From Akkermansia muciniphila (GTDB taxonomy: Bacteria; Verrucomicrobiota; Kiritimatiellia; RFP12; JAAYNR01), in NCBI GenBank assembly GCA_945870025.1, contig CAMBQN010000002.1:75762-139761 (forward strand): DNA of 64,000 bases, given 5' to 3'. The translations under genes were made by a program, and so were the position numbers. This document shows, one piece after another, positions 6,095 to 28,758 of the stretch. Below the pieces are notes generated by a model that saw nothing but the letters and a program-made list of their open reading frames with translations, made no database searches and was not told the origin of the DNA. Position 1 is the first letter of the stretch. Each line of letters begins with the position of its first letter.

Positions 6095-7297
6095 GTGAAG
6101 TCACGTCGCTTTATAGACCGTGTGACGGTGCATGTGCGTTCCGGAAAAGGCGGCGACGGCGGGTCGAGCTTTCTCCGCGAAAAATACGTCGATAATGGTG
6201 GCCCTGACGGCGGCGATGGCGGCCGTGGGGGTCACATTTTTTTTGTCGGCGATCACGATACCGACTCGCTGGTTCGTCTTTATTTCGAGCCGCTCGTGGT
6301 GGCGGAAGAGGGCGGCTCGGGTCGGAAGAAGCAGATGCACGGCAAGGACGGCGCCGACCGCGAAGTCAAAGTGCCATGCGGCACGTCGATTTTTGATGCC
6401 CTGACGGGCGAGCTGCTGGCCGACATCACCCGACATGGACAGCGGGAGTGTCTGGCGCGGGGCGGTAAGGGCGGGCTGGGGAACATTCACTTCAAGACCG
6501 CCACCCACCAGGCCCCAACTGAACACACGCCGGGCGAGGATTCCGACGAGCGCGATCTCAAGCTGGAACTCAAAACCGTGGCGGACATCGGGTTGCTGGG
6601 GTTCCCGAGCGCGGGCAAGTCGTCGTTGCTGGCTTCCATCAGCGATGCGCACCCCAAGATCGCCGCGTACCCGTTTACGACCCTGCACCCGATCATCGGC
6701 ACTGTGGCGTATCCCGATTACAGCCAGATCCGCGTGGCAGACATCCCCGGCATCATCAAGGATGCAAGCGAGGGGGTTGGGCTTGGCCTTGATTTTCTCC
6801 GCCATGTGTCGCGTTCGCGCATTCTGCTGATGGTGATTGACATGGCCGGCACCGACGGACGCGAACCGTGGCAGGATTACCGGACCCTCCGCGCCGAGCT
6901 TAAGGCCTATGATGCGGCTTTGATGGAGCGTCCGACACTGTTGGTCGCCAACAAGATGGATGTGCCCGAGGCCAAGGCTAATCTTGCGGTCTTCCGCAAG
7001 AAGGTGCGTGGTCGCATCCTGCAAATCTCGACCGTTGACGGGCGGGGACTGGACACGCTGAAGACGCGGCTGTGGGAGCTGATCCGACCCGTCGCGGGCC
7101 GTCGCGAGATCGCGGAACCGGAAGCCGTCGAAGCGCCTGCCGTAGACGCCCCATCTGCGCCGATAGAGCCCACCCGCGTGTCGCGTATTTTGGACGAAGC
7201 CGGCACCGAAGAGATCGTGGAGATCATTACTGCGGATCGCGTTCGAAACGCGGGTTTTTTGGTGATCGAGCCGAAGAAGAAGAAGAAGCGGCGGTAA
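6095..7297 (+). CDS. obg: GTPase Obg/CgtA
   Basis: 400 aa with a GTG start. Obg fold: FIDRVTVHVRSGKGGDGGSSFLREKYVDNGGPDGGDGGRGG. G1: GFPSAGKSSLL. G3: DIPG. G4: NKMD. The C-terminal tail is Lys/Arg-rich. Confidence 0.95.
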   Translation: MKSRRFIDRVTVHVRSGKGGDGGSSFLREKYVDNGGPDGGDGGRGGHIFFVGDHDTDSLVRLYFEPLVVAEEGGSGRKKQMHGKDGADREVKVPCGTSIFDALTGELLADITRHGQRECLARGGKGGLGNIHFKTATHQAPTEHTPGEDSDERDLKLELKTVADIGLLGFPSAGKSSLLASISDAHPKIAAYPFTTLHPIIGTVAYPDYSQIRVADIPGIIKDASEGVGLGLDFLRHVSRSRILLMVIDMAGTDGREPWQDYRTLRAELKAYDAALMERPTLLVANKMDVPEAKANLAVFRKKVRGRILQISTVDGRGLDTLKTRLWELIRPVAGRREIAEPEAVEAPAVDAPSAPIEPTRVSRILDEAGTEEIVEIITADRVRNAGFLVIEPKKKKKRR

Positions 7298-8624
7298 TCA
7301 GGCTGAACCGTTTCCAGCGCCCTGTGTAATAGTAGCCCACGCACAGGATCAGCCCGACGCCCCAGCCGATGACAAAGCTCCACCAGATTCCATCCGGCCC
7401 CATTCGGCGTGACAGCACCCGTGCCACGGGAATGCGCACCACAAACATGGAAAGAATGGTCAGAATCATCGGCACCAGTGTATTACCTGCCCCACGAAAA
7501 AGGCCGCTCAAGACAAACATGACGCTGAAGACGATGTAAAACCAGGCAGCGATATGGAAATAGCGCAGCCCCGCCGCAATGACTGCGGGGTCATGGGTGA
7601 AAAGGCCAAGCAGGTTCCGGCCGGCCAGCAGAATCAACGCGCTGATCAGGATCGAAAAGCCGACGCCCAGCCAGAGGCCGGCCCGCAGGCCCTGGCGGAC
7701 CCGATCCATTTTGTTGGCGCCTATGTTCTGGCCGACAAACGTCGAAACCGCGATCGACAGGTTCATCGACGGCATCAGCGCAAAAGCGTCCAGCCGCGAG
7801 GCGGCCGTGAATCCGGCAATGACATCCGTGCCAAAATTATTCACGAACCGAATGATCGCCATCATCCCGAGCGCGACCGATAATTGCTGCACGCCCGCAG
7901 GCAACCCCAGTTTCACGATCTTTTGGAAACTCTCCCAATCGAAGATCATCCGCGTGATCTTGAAATGCAGCAACGCGTTCTCCTTGCGATTTACATGCAG
8001 GATTAAACCCAGAAAGGAGGCTCCCTGCGCAATCAGCGTGGCCACACCGGATCCCGCAATGCCCCAGTGAAAGACCGTCACGAACACGACCACCAGAATG
8101 CTGTTCACGACGGTGGAGAGGATCAGGTAGATCGTGGGCGTCTTGGAATCTCCCACGGCCCGGAGTACGGAACTCACGGTGTTGTAGCCAAACATGAACG
8201 TGAGTCCATAAAAGAAAATATCAATGAAGATTCGGGCTAACGGCAGAATTTCCGCCGGCGTATGCATCTGGATCAGGATCGTCTGGCTCAGAAACGGCCC
8301 CGTGATCGACAGGAGTACGCCGACCACAAACAGGCTGATATACGTGGTGTCGATGGCCTTCTTGGCCCGCACAAAATCCTTGGCGCCATAATACTGAGAG
8401 ATGAGAATGCTCGCGCCCATCGTAAGCCCCATCGCCAAGGCAATCAGGAGAAACACAATGGGAAAACACGCGCCAATTGCGGCTAGTGCCTGTTTGCCTA
8501 GATACCGGCCAACCACCAGGCTATCCACAACAATGTAAAGTTGCTGGAAAACATTGCCAATGAGCATCGGCAGGGCGAACAGCACGATGAGCCGGGCTTC
8601 GGATCCTTGGGTCATATCTTTCAT
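7227..8624 (-). CDS. MATE family efflux transporter
   Basis: 465 aa. The N-terminus LIVLFALPMLIGNVFQQLYIVVDSLVVGRYLGKQALAAIG is the typical MATE/NorM TM1 motif, and the protein is polytopic and hydrophobic throughout. Its 3' end overlaps the convergent obg gene by 71 nt. Confidence 0.85.
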   Translation of the reverse strand: MKDMTQGSEARLIVLFALPMLIGNVFQQLYIVVDSLVVGRYLGKQALAAIGACFPIVFLLIALAMGLTMGASILISQYYGAKDFVRAKKAIDTTYISLFVVGVLLSITGPFLSQTILIQMHTPAEILPLARIFIDIFFYGLTFMFGYNTVSSVLRAVGDSKTPTIYLILSTVVNSILVVVFVTVFHWGIAGSGVATLIAQGASFLGLILHVNRKENALLHFKITRMIFDWESFQKIVKLGLPAGVQQLSVALGMMAIIRFVNNFGTDVIAGFTAASRLDAFALMPSMNLSIAVSTFVGQNIGANKMDRVRQGLRAGLWLGVGFSILISALILLAGRNLLGLFTHDPAVIAAGLRYFHIAAWFYIVFSVMFVLSGLFRGAGNTLVPMILTILSMFVVRIPVARVLSRRMGPDGIWWSFVIGWGVGLILCVGYYYTGRWKRFSLITAASSSSSARSPKNPRFERDPQ

Positions 8625-8688
8625 GGGATGCGATTATAACACCACGGCCCAAAATATCGGACGATTAAGATGGCAATAGCCTTTTCAC

Positions 8689-9693
8689 TTAGCGCCATTC
8701 GGAACGGGCCTGCCGTCTATCCCTCGTTCCTGCCGCACAAACCCGTCGGGACTCCTCCGGATCGAGTTGCACCTGCAGGGCTCCCATGCTCTCGCGGATG
8801 TGATCCGGTGAACGGCTGCCGATGATCGGAAATGTCGGGAATGGCTGGTGCAACAGCCAGGCCAGCGCCACCTGATTCACCGTGCATACCTTCTGCGCCG
8901 CCATCTTCATGGCCCGTTGCAGCCGTTCCCGGTTCGCAGGCGAATCATAGCTCGCGCCGCGTGGCGCGGGTCCCGCAAAACCTTGCCTGGCCCACTGCAC
9001 GTTCGCTTCGCCAAAATACCCGCCAGCCTGCGAGGAATACGACGCCAGAGGAAACCCCGTCCGCGTGTGCCAGTCCAGCGTGGCGTCATCCACATAGAGC
9101 ATGGGCGAGACATCAGCCCAGTGCGTTGCATGCGCGGCGAGACTCCACCCCGGCTGGTTCGTGACAAAGCCTTGGATGCCCGCCTGCTGCGCATAGGCGT
9201 TCGCGGCCTCGATGCGGGCCGGCATCCAGTTCGAGGCGCCGAAACAGCCGATGCGATTGCAGCGGTTGAGCTCCGCCAGATTGTCCATGATGGCGGCCAC
9301 CGGCATGCCGGGATGATCCCGATGCAGCCAGTAGATGTCCACGCGCTCAACCTGCAACCGCTCCAGACTCTGAGCAAAATCCTGGCGTAGATCGTCCATG
9401 CCGCAACGCCCGCAATCCATGGCGCCGAGATCCGGATGCCCGCCCTTGGTGCCGAGAATGATTCGGTCCCGCGCGTTCCGCGAACGGATCCATTCCCCCA
9501 CCGTGCGTTCGCTGGCCCCCACGCCGTTAGATTCCCAACTGGAGTAGACGTGCGCGGTATCCAGCACATTGCCGCCGGCTTCTAGATAGGCGTCCATAGC
9601 CGCGAACGCCTCCTCGCGCGAAATGTTGGAGCCGAAGCTCACCGTTCCGAGGGTGATGCGGGAGGGGGAGAGGTTGGTGGTAAATGGATTCAT
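8689..9693 (-). CDS. Aldo/keto reductase family oxidoreductase
   Basis: The ORF extends to 9744; the preferred start is ATG 9693 (MNPFTT...). AKR motifs: LGTVSFG, LDTAHVYS, ILGTKGG, ERVDIYWLHRD, PIIGSRSPDHIRE. Confidence 0.8.
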   Translation of the reverse strand: MNPFTTNLSPSRITLGTVSFGSNISREEAFAAMDAYLEAGGNVLDTAHVYSSWESNGVGASERTVGEWIRSRNARDRIILGTKGGHPDLGAMDCGRCGMDDLRQDFAQSLERLQVERVDIYWLHRDHPGMPVAAIMDNLAELNRCNRIGCFGASNWMPARIEAANAYAQQAGIQGFVTNQPGWSLAAHATHWADVSPMLYVDDATLDWHTRTGFPLASYSSQAGGYFGEANVQWARQGFAGPAPRGASYDSPANRERLQRAMKMAAQKVCTVNQVALAWLLHQPFPTFPIIGSRSPDHIRESMGALQVQLDPEESRRVCAAGTRDRRQARSEWR

Positions 9694-9793
9694 AGACACT
9701 TTATCATCCTTCCTCCTGCCACCACAACCCATCCGACCTTGCACACTTCAGAAGGTCGCGGGGGCAGTCCCCGTGAACACACTGCCGCGCCCA

Positions 9794-10807
9794 TCACTCG
9801 ATCGCCGCCTGCGCCATGGCCTCGAAGTTGGCTGGCGGCACGTTCGGGAGCAGCGCCTCGTGGCTCGGGCTCACGATGAGCCGCGGCCCGAGCAGCGCCT
9901 TGACCCGCCGGACCTCCGCCCTCACGTCGTCCGGAGTCCCGTGAACGAGGAGGTGCTGGGTGTCGATGCCGCCCATAAAAGCGATGCGGCCTTTGAAGTC
10001 CCGCGCCAAGGTCGCGGCGTCCATGTTCGCGGCCAGGGCCTGAAGCGGATGCAGGCAGTCCACGTCCGCGTCGATCAGGCGACCGATGACCTTGTGAATG
10101 GCGCCACAAGAGTGCAGCAGGGCCTGGTAGCCGTGGGCGTGCGCCTGCTTCGTAAAGCGGACGAACCACGGCAGGATGAATTGGTCGAACTGCGCCGGGC
10201 CGCAGATCAGGTCGAGCTGGGTGCCGAAGTCGTTGCCGAAGAAGAAGCCATCCACTTCGCGGCCTGCGACCGCGAAGAAACGTTCGTTGGCCTCGAAGTA
10301 GAAGCCGCAGACCCGGTCTGTCACGGCCTGCACCACCTCGGGATGGGTGTGCATCTTGACCATGTAGTTCTCCATCCCGAACAGATCCATCACGTTGTGG
10401 TAAAAGCAGGTCCAGAAGCCGCTGGCTCGGTAGACCTCGCCGGCTGACCGGAGTGTCGCGAGGCAGGCATCGAAGGAAAGGTAGTCGGGGTTGGGCCAGG
10501 GAAAGCTCTCCACCTCCGCCGGGTCTTCACAGTCGGCCAGAGGGCCCGCCTGGCCGTGGGACGTCTTGATTTGGCCGAAGTCGAACATGCCGCGGCCGTT
10601 CGGATTACGATACGCATCCGGGAAGAACTGCGGACAGATCCAGCGCAGGTCGTCCCCGAGCTTGCGCCGCAGTTCCTCCTCGGTCTTCGTGCCGAAATAC
10701 GTGTGCAACCCCGGCCAGCTCGCGCCATCGGGGTTCCCGAGCCACAGGCCACAACGATCGGCGGGCTCGCCTGCGATGATGGCGCTGATCCGTTCACGAC
10801 TGTTCAC
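9794..10807 (-). CDS. Uroporphyrinogen-decarboxylase (URO-D) family protein, MT2/MtaA-like with an H-x-C-G motif
   Basis: The ORF-track start at 10888 is TTG. The preferred start is GTG 10807, with AAGGAG 8 nt upstream. N-terminus: VNSRERISAIIAGEPADRCGLW. LLHSCGAIHKVI supplies the H-x-C-G motif. C-terminus: FMGGIDTQHLLVHGTPDDVRAEVRRV...SPSHEALLPNVPPANFEAM, typical of URO-D family proteins. Confidence 0.65.
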   Translation of the reverse strand: MNSRERISAIIAGEPADRCGLWLGNPDGASWPGLHTYFGTKTEEELRRKLGDDLRWICPQFFPDAYRNPNGRGMFDFGQIKTSHGQAGPLADCEDPAEVESFPWPNPDYLSFDACLATLRSAGEVYRASGFWTCFYHNVMDLFGMENYMVKMHTHPEVVQAVTDRVCGFYFEANERFFAVAGREVDGFFFGNDFGTQLDLICGPAQFDQFILPWFVRFTKQAHAHGYQALLHSCGAIHKVIGRLIDADVDCLHPLQALAANMDAATLARDFKGRIAFMGGIDTQHLLVHGTPDDVRAEVRRVKALLGPRLIVSPSHEALLPNVPPANFEAMAQAAIE

Positions 10808-10889
10808 AGGGTGGTCTCCTTTGCTGTCGAACTCAGTTCCGAAACATCTCGCGTCAGCCTGATTGAATACATGGCAAACCTTTCTCAAG

Positions 10890-12782
10890 TCACGGTTTGA
10901 ATTCCGGATCGACCCGCGTGGCCAGCAGCAGAAACACCAGCGCCCAGTCCTGGTCGTTGGCCAGTGAATCCCGGCAGCGCGCCGGGTTACCGTTGATCAT
11001 GTCGGGGTAGATGTAGGCGCAGGAGGCCCGGCCGTCCGGACGAAAGGCGCTGAGGTTATTCAGTAAGATCTCGCGCCCACGCCGCCGGTAAGACTCGTCG
11101 CCGGTAGCCTGCCAATACCGGTAGAACACCCAGCCGGTCAGCGCGCTCCAATGATGCGGGAACGTATCGCCCCAGAGTCGCTGCCGGCCGAACCAGTAGC
11201 CGTCCCAGTGCCGGATGGCGATGTCGTTGAGGTGGTGATCCGGCTGCCGGCCGTTGAATGCTTCGAGCAGCGGCAGGAACTCCTCCACGCACCTCAGATA
11301 GCGTGCATCTCGCGTACAAAGATACGCTTCGATCGGAATCAGTGTTGCTGGGCCGACTATGGTCTGCTCGTAGTTCACCTCGTGCGGCGGCAGGTGGGTG
11401 CCTGTGGCGACCACCGCATCGGCATGGCCGCAAAACAGTTTGAGCAGTTCCGCCGCTTGGCGGTCGCGCCCCGCCTGACGAAAGGCCGAGATCGTGTCGA
11501 ACATGGGGATCGGGAAGGCATAGAACTTCGCGCCGCCCCGACGATAGTACTGGCGGAAGGTCCGGTAACAGTCGTCAAACGCCTGCCGTTCCAGATGAAG
11601 CTGGGCCACCCAGGGATAGTTGTAGAGTCGCTGCTCGTGATCGTTTAACGATCCCAGGACCGTGCCATCCCGGCGCTGGAGCTTGGTCTGCACGAAGTCA
11701 TGGTGGCGCTTGGCGGCGGCGGCGACCTGCCGGTCCGGCCAGCGTTGCGCGGCCAGCGTGAGCAGGAGTCCCATGCCGACGCGCTCCCGCCCTTCGTTCT
11801 GGTCCGGCCAGGCGGGGTTGTGCAGCATGGCGTCCAGATCGTTGTCATAGGCGAGCAGCGCGCCATCCAACGGGTTGTTTCGGTCGCGCATCTGCTGGTG
11901 CTTCGTAATGAACGATACGCGGCTCCGCACCCGTGCGGCCACGTCCGGCACCTGCTGGACGCGCAGCCATGTCTGGCGTTTCCCGGACAGGCGCACTTTG
12001 ATCAGATCGCCATCCGGTTTTTCGGCAACCGCGCGGCGGCCGTCGACCGTGATCTGCGGCCGGGTGCGGCCGGTTACGGTGTAGTGGTCAGCGCGCACAT
12101 CCGCGAATCCGGGGATCGCGCGGGCCTGCGCCAGGAAATCGTCCCATCCCTTGTGCCAGAAGAGCGTCCAGGCCATCCGGAACGAGGCCCCCGGCGCCAG
12201 CGTTCCGCCGCGGGCGTTCAAGACGATGGCGCCGCGGGTATTCGAGCCGCCGCCCAACCAACCGCGCCCTTCGATACTGTAGCCGCCGAAGAAGCCGGCC
12301 GTCACCACCAGGCCGAGATGCGGCGCGGTGTTCCCCATGCGCAGGGCGCACACATAGGCGACATCCCCGCCGCACCAGATATGGGCATGACAGCGCTTCG
12401 TCAGGCAGGTTGCCGCGTCCGGGTAGTTGTCATTGAACGGCGTGAAGATGCGGGTTTCCCAGATGGGCTGCGCGATCTTTCCTGTGTTGCGCAGCACGTA
12501 CTCCTCGTTCAGATGTGCGCCGTGCAGACGGCGGGTCACGGCCATCTCCAGGTGACCCATGCGATAGACGAGTTGCGCGCCTCTCTTCTTGTTGACAGGC
12601 GTCTGCCAGCGCGCCACCACGGCGCCGGGCATGGCGACATAGCCCAGTCCCCAACCGTTCGAGACCGGGAACCCGAGACTCTCGGCTGCCGAGCAGACCC
12701 AGTTCATGCCGTGGGGGTCGTCCGGGTGTGCGATCCGGGTCAGCGCGCCGGTGTGCAAATCAACCGTGACGCCCATCTTCAT
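10890..12782 (-). CDS. Conserved hypothetical protein, possibly a helical-toroid glycosidase-like protein (family unassigned)
   Basis: ATG 12782 forms an ATGA overlap with the upstream stop (12779-12782). No signal peptide is seen. The Trp/Tyr/His-rich C-terminal half (HHWSALTGWVFYRYWQATGDESYRRRGREIL) is reminiscent of (alpha/alpha)6 folds. The function was not recognised. Confidence 0.6.
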   Translation of the reverse strand: MKMGVTVDLHTGALTRIAHPDDPHGMNWVCSAAESLGFPVSNGWGLGYVAMPGAVVARWQTPVNKKRGAQLVYRMGHLEMAVTRRLHGAHLNEEYVLRNTGKIAQPIWETRIFTPFNDNYPDAATCLTKRCHAHIWCGGDVAYVCALRMGNTAPHLGLVVTAGFFGGYSIEGRGWLGGGSNTRGAIVLNARGGTLAPGASFRMAWTLFWHKGWDDFLAQARAIPGFADVRADHYTVTGRTRPQITVDGRRAVAEKPDGDLIKVRLSGKRQTWLRVQQVPDVAARVRSRVSFITKHQQMRDRNNPLDGALLAYDNDLDAMLHNPAWPDQNEGRERVGMGLLLTLAAQRWPDRQVAAAAKRHHDFVQTKLQRRDGTVLGSLNDHEQRLYNYPWVAQLHLERQAFDDCYRTFRQYYRRGGAKFYAFPIPMFDTISAFRQAGRDRQAAELLKLFCGHADAVVATGTHLPPHEVNYEQTIVGPATLIPIEAYLCTRDARYLRCVEEFLPLLEAFNGRQPDHHLNDIAIRHWDGYWFGRQRLWGDTFPHHWSALTGWVFYRYWQATGDESYRRRGREILLNNLSAFRPDGRASCAYIYPDMINGNPARCRDSLANDQDWALVFLLLATRVDPEFKP

Positions 12783-15700
12783 AAATATTCCACCGACACG
12801 CAAATCTTACCACCAACCGTCGGCAACGTGACATCACCGCTCCGGGCATCGAACGCCTGCGAGGCGCGGCCGTTGATCGTGACGGACTGGATCGGCTTCT
12901 TCTCCGGGTGACGGAACCGGAGCAGCAACCGCTCGGGCTTAACCCGGAGTTCCAGTTCAACCTCCGCCTCAATCTTCCCGGCCGCGAGCTGCGGACGGTA
13001 CTCGACCGATACGATGCCGGCGGGTGTGCTCAGCCGCGTGGCGCTGAAGGCTTGCTCCTGCGCAAACCAGGCCCGCGGAATGGCGCGGCCAATGTGCAGC
13101 AGTCCGTCCCGCTCGTAAACGAACAGGTAGGCCAGCCACTTCATGGCGTTGGACTGATCGCTGGTCTTGAAGGGCGCGCAGTTGCCAAAACCCAGCACCG
13201 GCTGTGGGTGCTCCACAAAGGCCTGCACTTCGGGGCGATAGCACGCGGCCCAGGCGTTGAAGAACATCCAGAGGTAGACCTCGATCTCGTCACGGTCCAG
13301 GTGCGGCAGCAGACCGGCCAGCAGCGCCGGTTGCGGACAGATCCCGCCGCAGTCGAACCACTCGGTTTGCGGATCGTGGATCGGGTAGCTGTAGGGCGCA
13401 TTCATGTACCGGGTGTCCTGGTAGTCGTCCAGAATCCAGCCGCCTTGTTTGCTCTCGGACTTATAGAGTCCGGAAATCAGCAGATAGACCGAACCTTCCA
13501 GCGTTTCACGAATCCAGCCGTAGTCACGCCCGCGGCAATAGAGACGGGACGGATAGTGCGGAACCCAGCGTCCATCGCGCAAACGGACCAACGGACTGTT
13601 CCGGCGCGCCTCCTCGAACCCGCGGCGCAGGTCGCGCCCAAAGGCGTCCGCCTCCCGGCGATAGCGTGTGGCCTCGGCATGGCCGAATTTCTCCAGCGCG
13701 GCGGCCGCGCTGTCCAGCCCGCGCCAGGTCAGGCAGTTGGTGCTCAACCAATAGAAGTAGTCCTCCACGTCTTCGAGCGCGCCGGCCGGCAGAAAACCGC
13801 GCTCCCAGCCGCGCGAGTGCGGCAAGGTCTTGAGCGTCTCGCGACGTTGGCGCGCGATCCATTCGGCACCTTTGATGACGCTGTCTGCCACGCTGGCGAA
13901 CCACGCACGGTCGCCCGTGTGCAGGAAGTGCTGCGCCAGCGCCCACAAACCCCAGCCGTGATGCTGATTGTAGCTCTGCCCCGACTCCCACCCACCGCTG
14001 CCGTAGAACACCCCGTCATGGTCCGTGAAACGGCCGTGCAGGCCGACGGTCCCCTGATACTTGACCCAGGCGGCCAGGCGCCGCCGGACGTCGTCCATCA
14101 TGCCGCGCTGCTGGAGTTCCTCAACGATCATGACCGACTCGTTGGTGAAGTTTCCATAGGTGCAGGCGCCCACCGACGTGCTGACGATATACGGATCGTC
14201 CGTATGGCCGTAGTCGCTCATCACGACCATCGGTAGATGCCCGGTATACACCGCGTTCAGATGCGGATCCGGTGTCTGGATCTGGGCGCTCTTCCGGCTT
14301 TCCTCGCGCCAGTAGCGCGCCATCTCGTCATAGCACCGGCCGAAATCCAACCCGCGCAGCGCCGCAATTTCGGCCTCAGACTCGACGGCGACAAACGGAA
14401 TGCGCGCCAGGAACTCGCAGGTTTCGCCGGGTTGAAGCTTCTTGCGGAAGTGCACTCCCGCAGCGGTCGTCTCGGCCGTCATATCCGTCTGAAACGCGAG
14501 GCGTGGCACCATCTCATCCTGGAATGAACCGCGGATGAGGTCGCCATCCACAACCAGTTTCTCCCGCTCGCATTTCGGAACCAGCGTATCGGTCACATCA
14601 GTCCGGTTGCCTTCGCGCGAGGCGCGGCGGTTATGCACTCGGTGCGCCTTGTGGCTATAGGCAATCGGCAACTCCGCCGTGGCCGGTGCGTCGCCGGTAT
14701 TCTCGAACGAAAAACGCACCAATGCCACCATCGTGGCGTCCGGCGCCGGTTCACCGGCCAGCATGGATTGCGTCAACGGCACCGCGAAGCATTTCTGCCG
14801 AACCCGCACGGCATCGCGCCGGAATTGCTGGTTGTAGGCCATGACCGGCCAGGGGTCGTTATGCCGGGCTTCCGACCCCCATTGGTCGAGACCGAAAAAG
14901 AGGCGTGCCAATCCCGCATTCTTCCACTTGGGTGTATCGCGCCCATCGGGTGCCCCCCACCACGAGCCGCGCTTCACCAGGCAGTCTGTCAACTCGATGT
15001 CTCCGCACGGCTCGATCCAGAACTTCTGACGGGCGTGCCGGCAGCCGCAGACATAGGGCATGGGATGCGGCCGCGGCTGACCGTTCATGGCACCGGCGAG
15101 GGACTGCTCCGACAGCGCCGCAATCTCGGTCGCTACGGTGCGGCTCCCTTTGATGCGCTCGCGGTAGTCGGCAAAAGTTTCCGGATTCCCGGCGCGGACG
15201 ATGAAGATGCCGGCGTCGGCAAACCAGATCGGACCTTGCTCGTCCAGCGCGGCCAGCGCGATCGTGAAAGAGTCCTTGCCCAGATCGAAGCGGACGTGTG
15301 CGCCGTCATTGGCGTAGCTGTGCACGGAATCCATGTGATCGATCTCAATCTCAAAGGCCGCCTGCCGGCCCGCGCCGATCCGGACGTTTGTGGCCGTCAC
15401 GCGCGTGCCGCTACCGGCGCGCACCGCGCGCACAACCGCGTTGTAGCCGCTCACCCCGATGGTCTTGGCGGCGGTCCTCCGGCCGGCGTGCAGTTCGACG
15501 CGCAATTTGCTGCGCGTCGTCTGCGACCGGGTATAGACCCGCATCGCCTGGACGGCCACCGTGCTCTCCGACACGCGGATGCCCACCGTGCGGCGGAAGG
15601 TCACCGCGTAGTCGGTCACGTCAGGAAGCTCGGCCGTCATCGCCTGGAACGTAAAGACCAAGGTGCGCTTCCCGCGCCAGACGACCTTCGTTGCGGCCGT

Positions 15701-15976
15701 CACCCATTCCGGCGTGAAGGGGTCATCCATCTTATACCAGCCGACGGACATGGGCCGCTGCTGGACCAGCTCCATCACGCGCTCGATCCGTTTGGCCCAA
15801 CCCCCGGCGTTACTTTCGCCGGGCCAGTTCTTGCGCAGGTACTGCAAGCTGGCCGTCTTGGGCGCCGGGCCGACAAAATCCACCTCAACGCTCTCGATGT
15901 CCCGCATTTCCTCGAACTTCAACTCCCCCGCCGGCGCGTTGGCCAGGGCAAAGGGGGCGATATCAAATCGTGTCAT
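12779..15976 (-). CDS. Large (1,065 aa) hypothetical protein, predicted beta-sandwich + (alpha/alpha)6-toroid + beta-sandwich glycosidase/lyase-like; paralog of 51522-54677
   Basis: ATG 15976 overlaps the stop of the upstream URO-D-like gene (ATGA). Central helical region: SYNQHHGWGLWALAQHFLHTGDRAWF, YFYWLSTNCLTWRGL. The C-terminal LHIGRAIPRAWF...VSVEY...LLLRFRHP...VTINGR resembles the C-terminal sandwich of clan GH-L/GH95-type enzymes. The family is not identifiable by eye. Confidence 0.6.
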   Translation of the reverse strand: MTRFDIAPFALANAPAGELKFEEMRDIESVEVDFVGPAPKTASLQYLRKNWPGESNAGGWAKRIERVMELVQQRPMSVGWYKMDDPFTPEWVTAATKVVWRGKRTLVFTFQAMTAELPDVTDYAVTFRRTVGIRVSESTVAVQAMRVYTRSQTTRSKLRVELHAGRRTAAKTIGVSGYNAVVRAVRAGSGTRVTATNVRIGAGRQAAFEIEIDHMDSVHSYANDGAHVRFDLGKDSFTIALAALDEQGPIWFADAGIFIVRAGNPETFADYRERIKGSRTVATEIAALSEQSLAGAMNGQPRPHPMPYVCGCRHARQKFWIEPCGDIELTDCLVKRGSWWGAPDGRDTPKWKNAGLARLFFGLDQWGSEARHNDPWPVMAYNQQFRRDAVRVRQKCFAVPLTQSMLAGEPAPDATMVALVRFSFENTGDAPATAELPIAYSHKAHRVHNRRASREGNRTDVTDTLVPKCEREKLVVDGDLIRGSFQDEMVPRLAFQTDMTAETTAAGVHFRKKLQPGETCEFLARIPFVAVESEAEIAALRGLDFGRCYDEMARYWREESRKSAQIQTPDPHLNAVYTGHLPMVVMSDYGHTDDPYIVSTSVGACTYGNFTNESVMIVEELQQRGMMDDVRRRLAAWVKYQGTVGLHGRFTDHDGVFYGSGGWESGQSYNQHHGWGLWALAQHFLHTGDRAWFASVADSVIKGAEWIARQRRETLKTLPHSRGWERGFLPAGALEDVEDYFYWLSTNCLTWRGLDSAAAALEKFGHAEATRYRREADAFGRDLRRGFEEARRNSPLVRLRDGRWVPHYPSRLYCRGRDYGWIRETLEGSVYLLISGLYKSESKQGGWILDDYQDTRYMNAPYSYPIHDPQTEWFDCGGICPQPALLAGLLPHLDRDEIEVYLWMFFNAWAACYRPEVQAFVEHPQPVLGFGNCAPFKTSDQSNAMKWLAYLFVYERDGLLHIGRAIPRAWFAQEQAFSATRLSTPAGIVSVEYRPQLAAGKIEAEVELELRVKPERLLLRFRHPEKKPIQSVTINGRASQAFDARSGDVTLPTVGGKICVSVEYL

Positions 15977-17079
15977 TTTCGTGCTTCCTCCATATACGCA
16001 TCCAGGTTCACCGCCGGTGTGCCGAGCACGAGCGGGGAGCCGTTGGCAATCACAAACGTCCCCTCGGCAGCGGCCCGGCGCTGGCGGCGCACCTCAGCGC
16101 GAATGGCCTCCGGCGAGCCCCAAAGCAGCAGGTTACTGTCGAGATTGCCGAACAGGCAGGTCTCCGGCCGGAGCATCCGCCGGATTTCCAGCGGATCGAG
16201 CGCGAATCCCTTCTTGTCTTCCTCGATCATCAACCCGGCCATGTTCAGGCTGTTGAGCCAGCGCATGTGCGGGCGGACATCCCCCAGCCAGTAGCCGAGG
16301 GGGAGCAGACCGGCCTTCCGGACTTCGGCATAGAACCAGCGCTTGGCGTCGGCCTGCACGTGTTCCTCCAGTGCAGGCGAGAGCTGGCCCAGGCTCCCGC
16401 CCATGCCTTCCGAGAAGATGTAGGCATGCGCGCCGCATGCCTTCGCCGCTAGCACTCGCGGCATGAAATTCTCGCATTGCCGCCGGATGGCATAGGCGAC
16501 CAGATCCGGATTTTCCATGGCGCCAATCATGAGATCCTCGAACGGGATCCAGGGAAGACCGTTCATGCCGTCATTCATCGCGATGAAGACCCGGTCGCCG
16601 AATGCATCGGCCAACGGCTTCATGTGGTCGAACGTGCCGGACGCCAAAATCGCGTCCACGGTCGTCTGGTCGGCATCAAAATACGCATCCACCGTCGCCA
16701 GGGATTCCAGCGTCAGTCGGGGCCCCGTGTAGGGCGTAGCGGGCACGGCCGGATCCGGCGCGAGGGCGTAGTTCTCCTGGATTTCGAGCCAGCGCTGGCC
16801 GTCCTCACTGCGCAGAAAGGCACGCTTGCCCTCCACGCGGCGTTCGCGGTTCCAACTCCAGTGTCCGGCGCCCGAGCCGCAGTGGATCCAGTCCGGCTGG
16901 AACCGTTCGTAGAGCACGCGTTCCACGCCGGCCAGCTCCGCCCCGCCCTGGTAGGGAAAAAATTTCCAATGGAACCCGGCCAACTCCACCTTGTAGTCGC
17001 CCCAACTGTGGAAAACCGTCGGCGGGGTGCTGGCGCGTTCGCCGGACAGGGCTTTTATCATGCGCTCTTTACTGGTCAT
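15973..17079 (-). CDS. URO-D family protein lacking the H-x-C motif; paralog of 54674-55780
   Basis: The ORF runs to GTG 17088. ATG 17079 (MTSKERM...) aligns with the paralog start and has AAGGGG 9 nt upstream. The C-terminus LFGNLDSNLLLWGSPEAIRAEVRRQRRAAAEGTFVIANGSPLVLGTPAVNLDAYMEEA follows the URO-D/MtaA C-terminal pattern. Confidence 0.6.
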   Translation of the reverse strand: MTSKERMIKALSGERASTPPTVFHSWGDYKVELAGFHWKFFPYQGGAELAGVERVLYERFQPDWIHCGSGAGHWSWNRERRVEGKRAFLRSEDGQRWLEIQENYALAPDPAVPATPYTGPRLTLESLATVDAYFDADQTTVDAILASGTFDHMKPLADAFGDRVFIAMNDGMNGLPWIPFEDLMIGAMENPDLVAYAIRRQCENFMPRVLAAKACGAHAYIFSEGMGGSLGQLSPALEEHVQADAKRWFYAEVRKAGLLPLGYWLGDVRPHMRWLNSLNMAGLMIEEDKKGFALDPLEIRRMLRPETCLFGNLDSNLLLWGSPEAIRAEVRRQRRAAAEGTFVIANGSPLVLGTPAVNLDAYMEEARK

Positions 17080-17084
17080 AGCCA

Positions 17085-19172
17085 TCACCCCTTCTTTTTC
17101 GATCCCTTACGTTCCGCACGAATCACGCAGACGGCTGCCCGCTCCTGCCAGATCCCGGACTCCTGCAACCGCAGCCCGTCGCGCTCCAGATCGGCGCCCT
17201 TTCCAACCTCGCCGTCCTTGGCCGTCGCGCCGAACCCCCAGCGCAGAGCGTAGCGGCGGCCGGGTTTCAACCCCTGCGGCCGCAGGATCGGCGGGACGCC
17301 GGCAATGCCCAGCCGATACACAAATACCAGGCTCTCCTCCGCATCCGGATTCCGAAGTTGAAAGGCGATCCATTCCTCCCGGTGATCAATCGGCTCCGGC
17401 GGCGTCAGGAGATACCCAATCGCCCCCGTGATGAACCGCCTCCAAGTCTTGAAGAAGGCGATCGCCTCAGCCACGCGCGCGCGCTGCGCCGCCGTCAGTC
17501 CGGCCATGTCTCCGCTGATCCCCATCATGCCCGGCATGCCGGCCAGCAGCGCGTAGTCCAGGCTCGTGCTTTCCGCCATGCTCCAGGTGCTGGTGGGCAC
17601 CAGGACCAGCGGCGCGGAGTCCTGCATCGTTCGCCCGTAGTCGCACACCGCGCGCTCAACCGACCGGATGACAGGCCAGCGGCCGATCCGGCCGGGAGGC
17701 AGGCGCAGCCAGGAACCCTGCGTGATCCGCAGCGCGTCGGTGGGGTTCACGGTGTCGCTGAGGAAGAAGTTGTCGAAATGCCGCATCATCTCAAGGTCGG
17801 CGCGCATCGCGCCGCTGGCGCACCCCTCGAAGAAGACCTCGGGATACGCGGCGCGAACGTCGTCCAACAGCCGATGCCACGCGGCCGTGTAGTCCGAGAG
17901 TTCGGCGCCCGAGTCATCCGTATCAACGCGAAAATTGAAATCGATCTTCATCCAGGCCAGGCGGTAGGTTTTCACCAGCCGGACGATTTCCCCGCGGAGC
18001 CAGCGCCAGGCCGGGGGCTTGGTCAGATCCAGGCGGGCTTGGTTGCCGACGGGAATGAACCACTCCGGATGCTTGGCGCGGATGGGCGCCAGGGAACCGA
18101 ACCGTTCCGGCTCCATCCAGAGTCCGAACCCGAGGCCGGCGGCGCGAACCTCGTCTGCGAAGTCACGCATCCGCCCGCAGAACGCAGTCTTGGTCTTTTC
18201 CCGCCAGTCGCCGGTTTGCGCGCCCCAATCGCCCTCGCCGGCACCATACCAGCCAGCGTCAACCACGAACACTTCGCACCCCAGCTCCTGCGCGGCGGCC
18301 AGTTGCGTGCGCAGGCGCGACACTTCGAGGACCTCGAACTGATCGAACCACGTATTGAAGACCACCGGCGCTTGCGGCTTCGCGGACGGGTAGTGGTGGG
18401 CCAGGAGATAGCGATGCAAGATCGGCGCACCCAGGTGCGCTTCGCCGCCCGGCAACGGCTGGCAAAGGATTTCCGGGAGCTCAAATGTTTCCCTGGGACG
18501 GAGCGGGCGATGCAGGTTCTCATCGGACAGCCCCAGCTCAACCACCGCAAACGGCCGCCCGCCGCCCTCCACCACGGGCGTGACGCGGATCGTCCAGTTG
18601 CCGCGCGGCAGGACATGAAACGCGATTCCCTGAGCCGCGCCAGCCAGACGCACGGCCAGGTAGGGCGTGCCACCTTCCGTCGTGCGCCCGGAGAGGTGAC
18701 TCTGGCGCAGCCCGGTATGCAGCGGATTCCAGGCGCCCTGACTCTCGCGGCACCACGCACTGGCCTGCGTATAGCATTCATACCAACCCGGCGGAAGCGT
18801 CACACGGGCCAAACAACGCGATACCACCACCGGCCGCGCGCCGGCATTGGTCAGGGTGTCGCGGCGGCTGACGACGCCGGTCGCGGCGTCGCCCATCCAC
18901 GTCGTGGTCAACCGGACCGCCGTGTCTCCCACCCGCCAACGGCAGACCAGCGACATCGGAGCTTCCTCGACCTGCTCCAGCGCCAGTTGCGCACCTTCAT
19001 AACGCCGGCCGTCGAGCCGCAAGAGCGCCACCCCCTGGGTGGCCACCGGGCCGTTGTCCACGCCTTCGCGTCCGACCGGCAGACCGCACAACCGCGCAAG
19101 CCAGAAGCGCTCCGCAGTCCGATCAAAAACAGTTCCACAGTCCCAAATCGTGGTCATTACATCGTTAGCCAT
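17085..19172 (-). CDS. Alpha-galactosidase, GH36 family
   Basis: 695 aa; ATG 19172 with AGGAGA upstream. GH36 motifs: FVVDAGWYG, GLGFGLWMEPERF, nucleophile region LAWMKIDFN, and acid/base region FFEGCASGAMRADL. Confidence 0.8.
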   Translation of the reverse strand: MANDVMTTIWDCGTVFDRTAERFWLARLCGLPVGREGVDNGPVATQGVALLRLDGRRYEGAQLALEQVEEAPMSLVCRWRVGDTAVRLTTTWMGDAATGVVSRRDTLTNAGARPVVVSRCLARVTLPPGWYECYTQASAWCRESQGAWNPLHTGLRQSHLSGRTTEGGTPYLAVRLAGAAQGIAFHVLPRGNWTIRVTPVVEGGGRPFAVVELGLSDENLHRPLRPRETFELPEILCQPLPGGEAHLGAPILHRYLLAHHYPSAKPQAPVVFNTWFDQFEVLEVSRLRTQLAAAQELGCEVFVVDAGWYGAGEGDWGAQTGDWREKTKTAFCGRMRDFADEVRAAGLGFGLWMEPERFGSLAPIRAKHPEWFIPVGNQARLDLTKPPAWRWLRGEIVRLVKTYRLAWMKIDFNFRVDTDDSGAELSDYTAAWHRLLDDVRAAYPEVFFEGCASGAMRADLEMMRHFDNFFLSDTVNPTDALRITQGSWLRLPPGRIGRWPVIRSVERAVCDYGRTMQDSAPLVLVPTSTWSMAESTSLDYALLAGMPGMMGISGDMAGLTAAQRARVAEAIAFFKTWRRFITGAIGYLLTPPEPIDHREEWIAFQLRNPDAEESLVFVYRLGIAGVPPILRPQGLKPGRRYALRWGFGATAKDGEVGKGADLERDGLRLQESGIWQERAAVCVIRAERKGSKKKG

Positions 19173-19181
19173 GTTATTCTC

Positions 19182-20192
19182 CTAGACGCGCGGCAGCAAC
19201 CGGGCCGGATTGCGCACCAGTATCTGCGTAACCTCCTCGTCGGTCAATCCAAATTCCTTCCATTGTGGCAAAACGTGTGTAAAGAGATAAACGTACGGCG
19301 GAAGGGGCATCCACGAGCAAGACACAAAAGGACCGGTGACGTTGTCAAAAGCCCAGTCCAAGCCGAGTGTCAGCCGGTCGCCAAAACCGGCGTCAAAGAG
19401 GCGGCGAATGGCGTCCACCACCGCGCGCCAGTAGGAATCGTTGCCTTCCGCCTGCAGATTGGTGATACACAGTGACGCCCCTCGATCCAGACATTGCCGT
19501 ACTTCGCCCGGCAGGCGCACCAGATGGGGTTGCACATGCCCGAGGATCACCCGCGAGGGGTCGGCGCCGGCCGCCTCCAGGAGATCCAGTTGGGCAACGG
19601 GAGACGCGAGCGGTTCCAGCGCGGGTTCCACATGAGTTGTGATGCAGAGCCCGGTGCGGCGTTGCGCCAGAGCCCCGGCGCGAAACGCCTTCTCCTCCCG
19701 CGGGGTGAAAGCCGTGCGAGTGCTCGCCAGCTTGATGATGCCGGCGCGCACATCCGATCCGCGGATCCCCTGCTCGCACTCCTGCACCAGCAAATCCGCC
19801 AGCGCCTCCACATCCCAGGCGGCTACGCGCGGGTCCATCCAGCGATGGGGATAGGTCGGGCACCCCGCGTACTCCCACGACTCCCGCTCCCAGGCTTCGC
19901 GGTAGAAGCCGGTCGCGAGCACGATGTGCAGATTGGCTTCACGCGCCAGCATCGCGTAGACCCACGGCTCGGCCCGCATCGGCATGGGCGTGGCATCCAC
20001 CAGCGTGTGACACCCATGATCGTGCAACCGCTTGAGCGCCGGGATGCCGCAGTCACGCAGGAGCGCGACCCGCTCCGGCGGCGTCGTTCCCTCCGCTTCC
20101 GCATATTGATCCAGATGCAGATGCTCGTGCATCGTCACGGTGCCCAGCTCGCTGGCTGGAACCGGACCTAGGACTGTCATCACTTGGCCCAT
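19182..20192 (-). CDS. Phosphotriesterase-family (PTER-like) amidohydrolase, possible lactonase
   Basis: 336 aa. LGTVTMHEHLHLD provides the HxH metal site. Other motifs: HTLVDATP, HIVLATGFY, IIKLAS (carboxylated-Lys position), ITTHV, ILGHV, GLDWAF. Confidence 0.75.
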   Translation of the reverse strand: MGQVMTVLGPVPASELGTVTMHEHLHLDQYAEAEGTTPPERVALLRDCGIPALKRLHDHGCHTLVDATPMPMRAEPWVYAMLAREANLHIVLATGFYREAWERESWEYAGCPTYPHRWMDPRVAAWDVEALADLLVQECEQGIRGSDVRAGIIKLASTRTAFTPREEKAFRAGALAQRRTGLCITTHVEPALEPLASPVAQLDLLEAAGADPSRVILGHVQPHLVRLPGEVRQCLDRGASLCITNLQAEGNDSYWRAVVDAIRRLFDAGFGDRLTLGLDWAFDNVTGPFVSCSWMPLPPYVYLFTHVLPQWKEFGLTDEEVTQILVRNPARLLPRV

Positions 20193-20344
20193 GGTGCTGT
20201 ATCTCTCCGTAATCCGTAGTCGTCGCTGTAGTCGTCAACCGGCGCACATCGTTGTCGCAATCAGTGAAACATTCCACCACCATTCATACCTCGTTACAAA
20301 TACGACCCCTATGCCCTTTCTGATCTTCCGCGATCATCTGCCCC

Positions 20345-28632: not shown

Positions 28633-28758
28633 AGATTTCAGGGTCAGACCTAGAATCTAGATTTTTAGCTTGCATGGTTGTCGCCTTTTACTCTTAGATT
28701 TCAGGGTCAGACCTAGAATCTAGATTTTTAGCTTGCATGGTTGTCGCCTTTTACTCTT
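28633..28758. repeat. Perfect 63-bp tandem duplication containing the REP-like motif and the 3' end of the RAYT gene
   Basis: 28633-28695 and 28696-28758 are identical (agatttcagggtcagacctagaatctagatttttagcttgcatggttgtcgccttttactctt). Copy 2 contains the last 31 nt of the 28728-29765 CDS. Confidence 0.9.

What the first reader, a model, noticed from the sequence alone, without database searches (positions are those of the whole stretch)
12779..17079. Candidate novel two-component module: URO-D-like protein translationally coupled to an unassigned 1,065-aa toroid-like protein (copy 1)
Seen: the URO-D-like ORF ends in a TGA that overlaps the ATG of the 1,065-aa ORF (ATGA, 15973-15976). That ORF ends in a second ATGA overlap (12779-12782) with a 630-aa unknown. 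The same small+large pair, with the same ATGA junction, recurs at 51522-55780. Established: URO-D-fold enzymes are cofactor-free decarboxylases or MT2 methyltransferases and are not canonical CAZyme-operon members. Inference: this is an obligate, stoichiometrically co-expressed pair acting on a decorated (methylated, carboxylated or otherwise modified) sugar. Duplication of the intact pair argues that the linkage is functional.
Basis: partly seen in the sequence, partly recalled or inferred. Interest (0 to 1): 0.75.

Follow-up and report, generated by a model that had tools for sequence, protein, structure and literature searches.

The report
URO-D-like enzyme plus unannotated glycosidase-like protein
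A freshwater PVC bacterium carries two copies of a gene pair, a divergent uroporphyrinogen-decarboxylase-fold enzyme followed by a 1,050-residue protein shaped like a sugar-cleaving enzyme but belonging to no described family; the pairing recurs in distant bacteria, but neither gene strictly needs the other.

Summary
The small protein passes the Pfam threshold for URO-D and folds like MtaA/UroD. The large protein has no Pfam, NCBIfam or PDB sequence match. A confident AlphaFold model shows a beta-sandwich / (alpha/alpha)6 toroid / beta-sandwich architecture, closest to GH95, GH94, GH65 and GH15. It belongs to an unannotated superfamily of about 3,700 clusters, and some members carry NPCBM sugar-binding domains.

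- The pair is not obligate. Only 12 of 80 species-level L loci have a URO-D neighbour. About 40% of A loci have L. One lineage kept L and deleted A, leaving a 63-aa stub.
- The linkage is still non-random and ancient. A'-L' pairs at about 33% identity sit in Anaerolineae GH38/ABC-importer operons.
- ATGA overlaps run through the whole operon, so they are not specific to this pair.
- The "630-aa unknown" is a PL27 rhamnose-glucuronate lyase.

Best reading: the two proteins are cytoplasmic partners in one pathway, inside oligosaccharide-processing operons. The chemistry of the URO-D-like enzyme is unknown.

The parts
15973..17088 (-). A1: URO-D-fold TIM-barrel enzyme of a divergent subfamily that lacks the HxC motif. 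371 aa from the GTG; the likely true start is the ATG at 17085 or 17079.
   Evidence: PF01208 E=5e-12, 45.8 bits against a cut-off of 23.9. AF2 pLDDT 92.8. Foldseek top hit is 4ay7 MtaA (TM 0.71-0.78), followed by UroD structures. NCBIfam MtaA/CmuA scores are far below cut-off. Conserved polar residues lie at the C-terminal ends of the barrel strands.
12779..15976 (-). L1: 1,065-aa cytoplasmic protein with N-terminal beta-sandwich domains, an (alpha/alpha)6 toroid (about residues 534-952) and a C-terminal beta-sandwich. Candidate glycoside hydrolase or phosphorylase of an undescribed family.
   Evidence: No Pfam, NCBIfam or PDB sequence hit. AF2 pLDDT 88.6, pTM 0.88. Foldseek hits GH95, GH94, GH65, GH15, GH78, GH63 and GH116 at about 10% identity. 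114 close clusters, all named 'hypothetical'. The superfamily has 3,739 clusters. The N-terminus is conserved from residue 1, so there is no signal peptide.
15973..15976 (-). ATGA stop/start overlap between A1 and L1, with a GGAGG Shine-Dalgarno-like motif whose last G lies 10 nt upstream of the ATG.
10890..12782 (-). Its ATG overlaps the L1 stop (12779-12782).
   Evidence: phmmer against PDB hits 5no8/5nok BACCELL_00875 at E=1.9e-136 over nearly full length. The identity of that protein as a PL27 enzyme comes from PMC8377490.
9794..10888 (-). A3: third URO-D-like gene, of a different subfamily (18% identical to A1). It has an H-S-C motif at the position where, from memory, MT2 methyltransferases bind zinc. 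The start codon is uncertain.
   Evidence: PF01208 E=4.5e-17. NCBIfam MtaA-like hits at 44-46 bits are far below cut-off. Motif comparison.
17085..19172 (-). GH36 (melibiase-type alpha-galactosidase family) gene directly upstream of A1. Its stop overlaps the A1 start region.
   Evidence: PF02065 2.7e-39, plus the GH36 N- and C-terminal domains. Junction.
19182..20192 (-). Phosphotriesterase-family (lactonase-like) gene. It is the first gene of the tightly packed run.
   Evidence: PF02126 6.7e-43. NCBIfam hits include phospho-furanose lactonase, well below cut-off. The gap to GH36 is 9 nt.
7227..9744 (-). Aldo/keto reductase (8689-9744) and MatE transporter (7227-8624) at the distal end of the same gene run.
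   Evidence: PF00248 3.9e-52 and PF01554 2e-69. Gaps of 49 and 64 nt.
54674..55780 (-). A2: paralogue of A1 (81% identical).
   Evidence: PF01208 6.3e-14. Alignment.
51522..54677 (-). L2: paralogue of L1 (72% identical, 1,051 aa). The ATGA overlap with A2 is at 54674-54677.
55945..58164 (-). GH95 gene, 164 nt upstream of A2.
   Evidence: PF22124 1.2e-151.
49028..51493 (-). GH78-type alpha-L-rhamnosidase gene, 28 nt downstream of L2.
   Evidence: The Bac_rhamnosid C-terminal and 6-hairpin domains pass their Pfam cut-offs; the N-terminal and concanavalin-like domains score below theirs.

Best explanation
A and L are facultative partners in one pathway, not subunits of an obligate enzyme. Both lack signal peptides, and both sit in tightly packed operons of intracellular sugar-processing genes.

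Operon context:
- Copy 1 here: PTE-lactonase-like, GH36, A1, L1, PL27 lyase, URO-D no. 3, aldo-keto reductase, MatE.
- Copy 2 here: GH95, A2, L2, GH78.
- Anaerolineae: GH38, ABC sugar importer, URO-D, L', often with a second URO-D or a xylose-isomerase-like TIM barrel.

L is most likely an exo-acting glycoside hydrolase (possibly a phosphorylase) of an undescribed family. It would cleave an imported oligosaccharide in the cytoplasm using the pocket of its (alpha/alpha)6 toroid.

A is an active TIM-barrel enzyme of a URO-D branch that has lost the features of both known URO-D chemistries. It probably either removes or alters a decoration so that L (or a neighbouring glycosidase) can act, or it converts the sugar that L releases.

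The stop/start overlap and the Shine-Dalgarno motif inside the 3' end of A give co-transcription and probably coupled translation in this genome. That arrangement is dispensable.

Shown: gene structure, folds, family membership or its absence, and neighbourhood statistics. Inferred: catalytic activity of L, any chemistry of A, and the order of steps.
For: Folds and families:
- L model pLDDT 88.6; best structural matches are GH95, GH94, GH65, GH15 and GH78.
- Distant L relatives are fused to NPCBM/NEW2 carbohydrate-binding domains.
- A is a URO-D fold with conserved N172, E227, Y266, D270, E289, E290, N315, D317, N349 and S351 at the catalytic face of the barrel.

Linkage:
- URO-D is the commonest Pfam family both upstream (8/68) and downstream (6/66) of L.
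- 14 of the 16 URO-D genes in the flanks are immediate neighbours of L, against 27% expected (P about 1e-6).
- At least four URO-D subfamilies lacking HxC are adjacent and co-directional with L.
- About 23 of 58 evaluable A-centred loci carry L.
- A and L diverge in step: 94/92, 60/66 and 34/32 % identity.
- The A-L pair stands alone among housekeeping genes in L087.

Cytoplasmic catabolic context.

Facultative nature.
Against: - No biochemical data exist for either family, and no catalytic residues of L could be assigned. The only sequence-level bridge to GH95 is a 39-residue hhalign match with 1.3% probability.
- Most L loci have heterogeneous neighbours, including housekeeping genes. L may therefore have a role unrelated to any URO-D enzyme.
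- The neighbourhood statistics are not corrected for shared ancestry.
- L has many invariant arginines. These would also fit a lyase, a phosphorylase or a non-glycosidic substrate.
Confidence: 0.55

Rival explanations
1. Obligate two-component enzyme. A and L would form a fixed-stoichiometry heteromer, with translational coupling through ATGA ensuring 1:1 synthesis, and neither would work alone.
For: ATGA overlap in both copies. The duplicated unit is exactly the pair. Overlapping junctions also occur in Anaerolineae pairs (14-nt overlap). Adjacency is conserved at deep divergence. The pair is isolated in L087.
Against: 68 of 80 L loci have no adjacent URO-D. L003-L006, which are 76-88% identical to L1, lack A. 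A orthologues occur without L. Insertions of 233 nt to 3.8 kb split the junction in 94-95% identical orthologues. A was deleted while L stayed intact in L164/L165. No A-L fusion was found. The same overlaps join GH36/A1 and L1/PL27.
Confidence: 0.1
2. Anaerobic sugar O-demethylation. A (and the other URO-D-like genes) would be methyltransferase-I-type enzymes that strip methyl ethers from sugars such as 2-O-Me-fucose, 4-O-Me-GlcA or 3-O-Me-rhamnose/mannose, passing the methyl group to a cobalamin carrier. L or neighbouring glycosidases could then finish the job in an organism that cannot use oxygen-dependent P450 demethylases.
For: The best structural match of A is the methylcobalamin:CoM methyltransferase MtaA. 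One L locus has an MttB-superfamily methyltransferase directly upstream. The window is rich in enzymes for fucose- and rhamnose-rich glycans, whose sugars are often methylated. From my own knowledge, Kiritimatiellia are mostly anaerobes, and the only sugar demethylases found in the literature search are P450s (PMC6292453).
Against: No B12-binding or corrinoid protein, activase or second methyltransferase appears in any neighbourhood examined. A-clade proteins have YWLGD where A3 has H-S-C, so the presumed zinc site is missing. NCBIfam MtaA/CmuA scores are 16-29 bits against cut-offs of 235-600.
Confidence: 0.12
3. No specific functional link. URO-D-like genes are simply abundant in the carbohydrate operons of these phyla, and their adjacency to L reflects operon shuffling plus inheritance in a few clades.
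For: The window alone holds three URO-D-like genes. L neighbourhoods are very heterogeneous. Many adjacent cases belong to two clades, Kiritimatiellia and Anaerolineae.
Against: 14 of 16 URO-D genes in 8-kb flanks are immediate neighbours of L. Several distinct URO-D subfamilies, on either side of L, are involved. A and L diverge in parallel down to about 33% identity with gene order kept.
Confidence: 0.15
4. L is not a glycosidase. It would be a polysaccharide lyase, an epimerase or a non-catalytic binding protein built on the same toroid scaffold.
For: No catalytic residues could be mapped. There are many invariant arginines. The toroid-containing neighbour PL27 is a lyase.
Against: All top structural matches with the same three-part domain order are GH or GP enzymes. 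From my own knowledge, lyases with toroids usually place the toroid first. About 75 invariant residues across sequences down to 26% identity, concentrated in the toroid, argue for catalysis.
Confidence: 0.08

Closest known systems
GH95 alpha-L-fucosidases/galactosidases (e.g. PDB 4ufc BACOVA_03438, 2ead AfcA, 7zo0 FucOB)
   Same: Best Foldseek matches (E about 6e-16). Same order of domains: N-terminal beta-sandwich, (alpha/alpha)6 toroid, C-terminal beta-sandwich. Faint Pfam GH95 hits in distant L relatives (E 0.025-0.18). The motif PFKTSDQSNA...IPRAWF aligns with the GH95 motif [10 protein letters not shown]...LPVVWP at the end of the toroid (low probability).
   Different: About 10% identity and TM only 0.36-0.48. 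L is about 300 residues longer, with extra N-terminal domains. There is no significant Pfam, NCBIfam or PDB sequence match. Catalytic residues are not demonstrably conserved.
GH94 / GH65 glycoside phosphorylases (cellobiose, chitobiose and maltose phosphorylases)
   Same: Near-equal structural similarity (TM about 0.5). Cytoplasmic location and association with ABC sugar importers are typical of phosphorylases.
   Different: No sequence similarity, and no phosphate-site residues could be identified.
MtaA/MtbA MT2 methylcobamide:CoM methyltransferases and UroD (HemE), the two characterised branches of the URO-D superfamily
   Same: Same TIM-barrel fold (TM 0.65-0.78). Pfam PF01208 is passed.
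   Different: 12-17% identity. NCBIfam scores are far below all curated cut-offs. The H-x-C motif seen in A3 is replaced by YWLGD. There is no corrinoid partner nearby. The N-terminal HSWGDYK segment replaces what I recall as the arginine-rich carboxylate-binding motif of UroD (from memory, not tested).
PL27 L-rhamnose-alpha-1,4-D-glucuronate lyases (BT0263, BACCELL_00875)
   Same: The gene directly downstream of L1 is a clear homologue (E=1.9e-136). These enzymes remove rhamnose caps from arabinogalactan-protein side chains (PMC8377490).
   Different: PL27 is a neighbour of the pair, not part of it. No PL27 homologue was found next to L in any of the 80 other loci.

Membership tests
URO-D superfamily (Pfam PF01208), for A1/A2 | Score above the Pfam gathering threshold | tested here: met
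   45.8 and 52.2 bits against a cut-off of 23.9. Only the C-terminal half of the profile aligns.
URO-D superfamily (Pfam PF01208), for A1/A2 | URO-D-type (beta/alpha)8 barrel fold | tested here: met
   AF2 pLDDT 92.8. Foldseek hits 4ay7 MtaA and more than 20 UroD structures, TM 0.65-0.78.
Uroporphyrinogen decarboxylase proper (HemE) | NCBIfam TIGR01464 equivalog score | tested here: not met
   No TIGR01464 hit for A1 at E<=0.1. PDB UroD sequences match only residues 295-369, at E=0.019.
MT2 methylcobamide methyltransferases (MtaA/CmuA) | NCBIfam TIGR01463 / NF040654 score above cut-off | tested here: not met
   16-29 bits against cut-offs of 235-600.
MT2 methylcobamide methyltransferases (MtaA/CmuA) | His-x-Cys zinc-binding motif after the barrel strand (motif position recalled from memory) | tested here: not met
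   A1-type proteins have G-Y-W-L-G-D where A3 has L-H-S-C-G. The other L-adjacent subfamilies also lack H-x-C. No MtaA sequence was available for a direct alignment.
MT2 methylcobamide methyltransferases (MtaA/CmuA) | Corrinoid-protein partner encoded nearby | tested here: not met
   No B12-binding family appeared among the window genes or among the neighbours of L or A loci.
GH95, for L1/L2 | Match to the GH95 catalytic domain (PF22124) or to GH95 sequences in the PDB | tested here: not met
   No hit for L1 even at E<=10, and only E=0.025-0.18 in distant relatives. Profile search against PDB sequences found nothing real. The similarity is at fold level only.
Any CAZy GH/PL family without a Pfam model or solved structure (for example GH139) | Match to CAZy/dbCAN family models | not testable with these tools
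   No dbCAN or CAZy library was available. All 114+88 close homologues and 10 distant ones are named 'hypothetical protein' by NCBI and JGI.
PL27, for the 630-aa ORF | Full-length sequence homology to a characterised PL27 enzyme | tested here: met
   5no8_A BACCELL_00875, E=1.9e-136, two stretches covering residues 7-218 and 265-623. The activity of that protein is described in PMC8377490. Catalytic residues were not checked.
Obligate two-component enzyme (A+L) | Adjacency or co-presence conserved wherever either gene occurs | tested here: not met
   12 of 80 L loci and about 23 of 58 A loci are paired. A was deleted while L stayed intact.
Obligate two-component enzyme (A+L) | Predicted or observed physical complex | not testable with these tools
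No fusion proteins were seen.

The most novel reading that the evidence does not exclude
The HxC-less branch of the URO-D superfamily would be a previously unrecognised class of carbohydrate-active enzyme, for example an oxygen-independent sugar O-demethylase or another decoration-removing or sugar-converting activity. It would work together with a new glycoside hydrolase family (the L superfamily) to let anaerobic and microaerophilic PVC, Chloroflexota and Armatimonadota bacteria consume decorated algal and plant glycans.
Probability: 0.18. Interest if true: 0.85.

Novelty: new variant of a known kind. Interest (0 to 1): 0.58.

Why it matters
L represents a large protein superfamily: about 3,700 clusters at 50% identity, present in many bacterial phyla, with one hit in a Bathyarchaeia genome bin and one in Promethearchaeota bins. 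It has a glycosidase-like fold but no annotation, no domain model and no solved structure, which makes it a strong candidate for a new CAZy family.

Its recurrent partner is a URO-D-fold enzyme lacking the signatures of both known URO-D chemistries. I found no report of URO-D-family proteins in glycan breakdown in the held literature.

Working out the two activities would fill a gap in how uncultured freshwater and sediment bacteria dismantle complex fucose-, rhamnose- and mannose-containing glycans. It could also reveal how sugar decorations are removed without oxygen.

Tried and rejected
- Sequence searches of L1 and of the 37-sequence profile against PDB chains gave nothing, or only spurious haemagglutinin hits.
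- Pfam at E<=10 for L1 gave only a GH15 hit at E=0.18.
- hhalign of the L profile against the window's GH95, GH78 and PL27 genes gave probabilities of 1-2% only.
- I could not access model coordinates, so no catalytic residues were mapped.
- Exact-sequence look-ups of the window's own A1 and L1 found no record. The source contig was therefore not identified. The nearest relatives are lake Kiritimatiellia bins.
- Seven literature searches linking URO-D with polysaccharide utilisation, CAZymes, GH38 or sugar demethylation found nothing relevant. Only the PL27 search was informative.
- I considered gene conversion between the two copies because nucleotide identity is mosaic, 60-93%. A third paralogue type (L164) shares the same highly conserved C-terminus, so constraint explains the pattern equally well. 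I make no claim.
- The promoter/terminator scan of the operon gave nothing above shuffled expectation.
- The idea that L removes the unsaturated glucuronate left by PL27 was dropped, because no other L locus has a PL27 neighbour.


Full report
**1. Observation**

All relevant genes are on the minus strand.
- The URO-D-like ORF A1 (15973..17088) ends in a TGA that overlaps the ATG of a 1,065-aa ORF, L1 (12779..15976). The sequence reads cgaaaATGAca.
- The L1 stop overlaps the ATG of a 630-aa ORF (10890..12782) at 12779-12782.
- The second copy is A2 (54674..55780) and L2 (51522..54677), with the same cgaaaATGAag junction.
- A1/A2 are 81% identical and L1/L2 are 72% identical.
- A nucleotide alignment of the two regions shows similarity that starts and stops at the outer borders of A+L.
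- An HMM scan finds exactly three URO-D-like genes and two L genes in the window.

One qualification applies. The 4-nt overlap is not peculiar to this pair. The GH36 stop overlaps the A1 start region, L1 overlaps the next gene, and that gene is 1 nt from a third URO-D-like ORF. This is a tightly packed operon.

**2. What the parts are**

A1 and A2:
- They pass the Pfam URO-D threshold, although only the C-terminal half of the profile aligns.
- A confident model (pLDDT 92.8) is closest to the methylcobalamin:CoM methyltransferase MtaA (4ay7, TM 0.71-0.78), followed by many UroD structures.
- NCBIfam scores for MtaA/CmuA are an order of magnitude below cut-off, and there is no HemE hit.
- In the family alignment, A-type proteins read G-Y-W-L-G-D where the third URO-D gene of the window (A3, 9794..10888) reads L-H-S-C-G. 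From memory, the latter is the position of the MT2 zinc motif.
- Conserved polar residues (N172, E227, Y266, D270, E289, E290, N315, D317, N349, S351) sit at the C-terminal ends of the predicted barrel strands. A therefore looks like an active enzyme with a different active site.

L1 and L2:
- They have no Pfam, NCBIfam or PDB sequence match, even when a 37-sequence profile is used.
- The AlphaFold model (pLDDT 88.6, pTM 0.88) shows N-terminal beta-sandwich domains, an (alpha/alpha)6 toroid at about residues 534-952, and a C-terminal beta-sandwich.
- Foldseek matches GH95 first, then GH94, GH65, GH15-like, GH78, GH63 and GH116 enzymes. Identity is about 10% and TM is 0.4-0.57.
- The close family has 114 clusters, all named 'hypothetical', from Kiritimatiellia/Lentisphaerae, Anaerolineae, Armatimonadota, Hydrogenedentota, Planctomycetota and others.
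- A full HMM scan of 1.8 billion representatives finds 3,739 clusters at E<=1e-3 and 776 at E<=1e-30.
- Four distant members carry NPCBM/NEW2 carbohydrate-binding domains. None has a name.
- The N-terminus is conserved from residue 1 and is not hydrophobic. The core family is therefore cytoplasmic.

The '630-aa unknown' is not unknown. It matches BACCELL_00875 (PDB 5no8/5nok) at E=1.9e-136 over almost its whole length. That protein is a PL27 L-rhamnose-alpha-1,4-D-glucuronate lyase, built from a beta-sandwich and an (alpha/alpha)6 barrel (PMC8377490).

Context:
- Copy 1 lies in the run PTE-family lactonase-like, GH36, A1, L1, PL27, URO-D no. 3, aldo-keto reductase, MatE. Gaps range from -4 to 64 nt, and none of the proteins from PTE through the aldo-keto reductase has a signal-peptide-like N-terminus; the last gene, MatE, is a membrane transporter.
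- Copy 2 lies between a GH95 gene and a GH78 gene.
- The rest of the window holds GH29-like, GH31, GH106, PcRGLX-like and beta-helix genes, plus giant proteins with FGE-sulfatase domains.
- This is a glycan-degrading island for fucose-, rhamnose-, galactose- and uronate-rich material.

**3. Is the pair a conserved unit?**

L-centred test. 80 loci from one genome per species were fetched with 8-kb flanks.
- A URO-D-like gene is the immediate neighbour in 12 loci (10 upstream and 4 downstream placements; two loci have both).
- 14 of the 16 URO-D genes anywhere in the flanks are immediate neighbours, against 27% expected (binomial P about 1e-6, not corrected for phylogeny).
- In Pfam censuses of the nearest genes, URO-D is the commonest family on both sides (8/68 and 6/66). 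GH38 (5) and GH3 (3) come next, and most neighbours are unrelated to one another.
- The adjacent, co-directional URO-D genes belong to at least four subfamilies, about 25% identical to each other and all lacking H-x-C.
- L003-L006, which are 76-88% identical to L1, have no URO-D. In L006 the GH36 gene runs directly into L.

A-centred test. 80 metagenome loci were examined.
- About 23 of 58 evaluable loci carry L next to A.
- Orthologues 53-60% identical to A1 do not. One comes from a genome assembly whose protein NCBI names as Armatimonadota, and two come from metagenome contigs of unknown taxon. They sit beside a prolyl isomerase gene or housekeeping genes.
- A more distant URO-D group (31-35% identical to A1) is followed by an L' (31-33% identical to L1) in nine loci.
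- In Anaerolineae these pairs lie in operons of the form GH38, sugar-binding protein, two permeases, URO-D, L'. Some also have a second URO-D or a xylose-isomerase-like TIM barrel.
- Other L' genes follow GH2 or stand alone.
- In L087 the A-L pair sits alone among arginine-biosynthesis and other housekeeping genes.
- One Chloroflexota locus has an MttB-superfamily methyltransferase directly upstream of L, with URO-D and GH38 genes within 9 kb.

Stability of the junction.
- In orthologues of copy 2 (94-95% identical), a 233-nt insert made of two copies of a palindromic element separates A from L.
- In other close relatives, 1.2-1.4 kb (a 254-aa ORF) or 3.8 kb (a YhcG/DUF1016-like nuclease plus an 829-aa ORF) is inserted.
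- In L164/L165 only the last 57 residues of A survive as a 63-aa ORF. It still overlaps the start of L by ATGA, and L itself is an intact 1,070-aa gene.
- No A-L fusion protein was seen in any search.

Conclusion: the association is real, recurrent and old, but facultative in both directions. The overlap is a local feature of operon packing.

**4. How it most likely works**

The best-supported picture is a cytoplasmic step in oligosaccharide catabolism.
- L most likely is an exo-glycosidase, or possibly a phosphorylase. Its domain order and toroid match the GH95/GH65/GH94/GH15 group. It is intracellular, it accompanies ABC sugar importers and other intracellular glycosidases, and relatives carry NPCBM modules.
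- A is a TIM-barrel enzyme that acts on the same substrate stream, either before L (removing or altering a decoration) or after it (converting the released sugar).
- What A does chemically is unknown.
- The demethylase idea is attractive, given the MtaA-like fold, the MttB neighbour in one locus and the often-methylated sugars of such glycans. It lacks the expected corrinoid partner and zinc motif.
- The acidic active site, together with weak structural hits to xylose isomerase-like barrels, would equally fit a metal-dependent sugar-converting enzyme.

**5. Comparison with known systems, and novelty**

At fold level L works like a clan-type six-hairpin glycosidase, but it fails every sequence-based membership test I could run. 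Membership in a CAZy family that lacks both a Pfam model and a structure could not be tested. A is a member of the URO-D superfamily, but of neither characterised branch. I found no paper linking URO-D-family proteins with glycan catabolism in the held library.

I rate this a new variant of a known kind: an ordinary-looking catabolic operon containing an unannotated glycosidase-like superfamily and an unusual recurrent partner enzyme.

**6. Verdict**

- Observation: confirmed.
- Interpretation: partly supported. The module is real, it is not obligate, and the third gene was mis-called.
- Interest: 0.58.

Noticed in passing
Pfam and NCBIfam have no model for it.
   Followed up: yes
window 9794-10888 (-): A third URO-D-like gene lies in the same operon. 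It belongs to a different subfamily (18% identical to A1) and carries an H-S-C motif at the position where A1 has YWLGD. Its listed TTG start is probably too far upstream.
   Followed up: partly
window 20200-20240 (-); L009 1779-1966: A roughly 45-nt element (GGTTGACGACTACRGCGACGACTACGG...) sits just upstream of the PTE-family gene that opens the operon. Two copies of it, forming 29-nt inverted repeats, make up the 233-nt insert between the A2 and L2 orthologues in a related genome. It could be a REP-like element or a promoter/regulatory element.
   Followed up: partly
window 28728-29765 (-): A 345-aa ORF has an N-terminal IS200-like Y1 transposase domain (PF01797). It resembles REP-associated tyrosine transposases, which may relate to the palindromic element above.
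   Followed up: no
L090 5349-9162; L092 1471-2235; L004 8102-9289: In close relatives, the A-L junction or the region just upstream of L is a recurrent insertion site for small cassettes. Examples are a YhcG/DUF1016 PDDEXK-nuclease-like gene, an 829-aa ORF (a GH95-like appearance is my reading of its sequence, not tested) and a 254-aa ORF. In L090 a duplicated L 5' fragment flanks the insertion.
   Followed up: partly
L164 4983-5174 (also L165): A 63-aa ORF is the C-terminal stub of a deleted A gene. It still overlaps the start of an intact L gene by ATGA.
   Followed up: yes
L085 8534-9958 (= L011 6534-7958): In a Chloroflexota genome, an MttB-superfamily (trimethylamine methyltransferase-like) gene lies 43 nt upstream of L. 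GH38, URO-D, an FAD amine-oxidase-like gene and two Amidohydro_2 genes are nearby.
   Followed up: partly
window 29993-34822 and 40003-45156 (-): Two giant ORFs (1,609 and 1,717 aa) have their only Pfam match in an FGE-sulfatase (formylglycine-generating-enzyme-like) domain. A 430-aa FGE-sulfatase protein lies at 38422-39714.
   Followed up: no
window 61530-63950 (-): An 806-aa ORF has no Pfam hit even at E<=10. It may not be a real gene, because its N-terminus is unusually charged.
   Followed up: no
P0180: A 396-aa predicted protein on a short metagenome contig combines GH36 C-terminal domains with the N-terminal part of an A1-like protein (77% identity). This is probably read-through at the overlapping GH36/A junction or an assembly artefact.
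   Followed up: no
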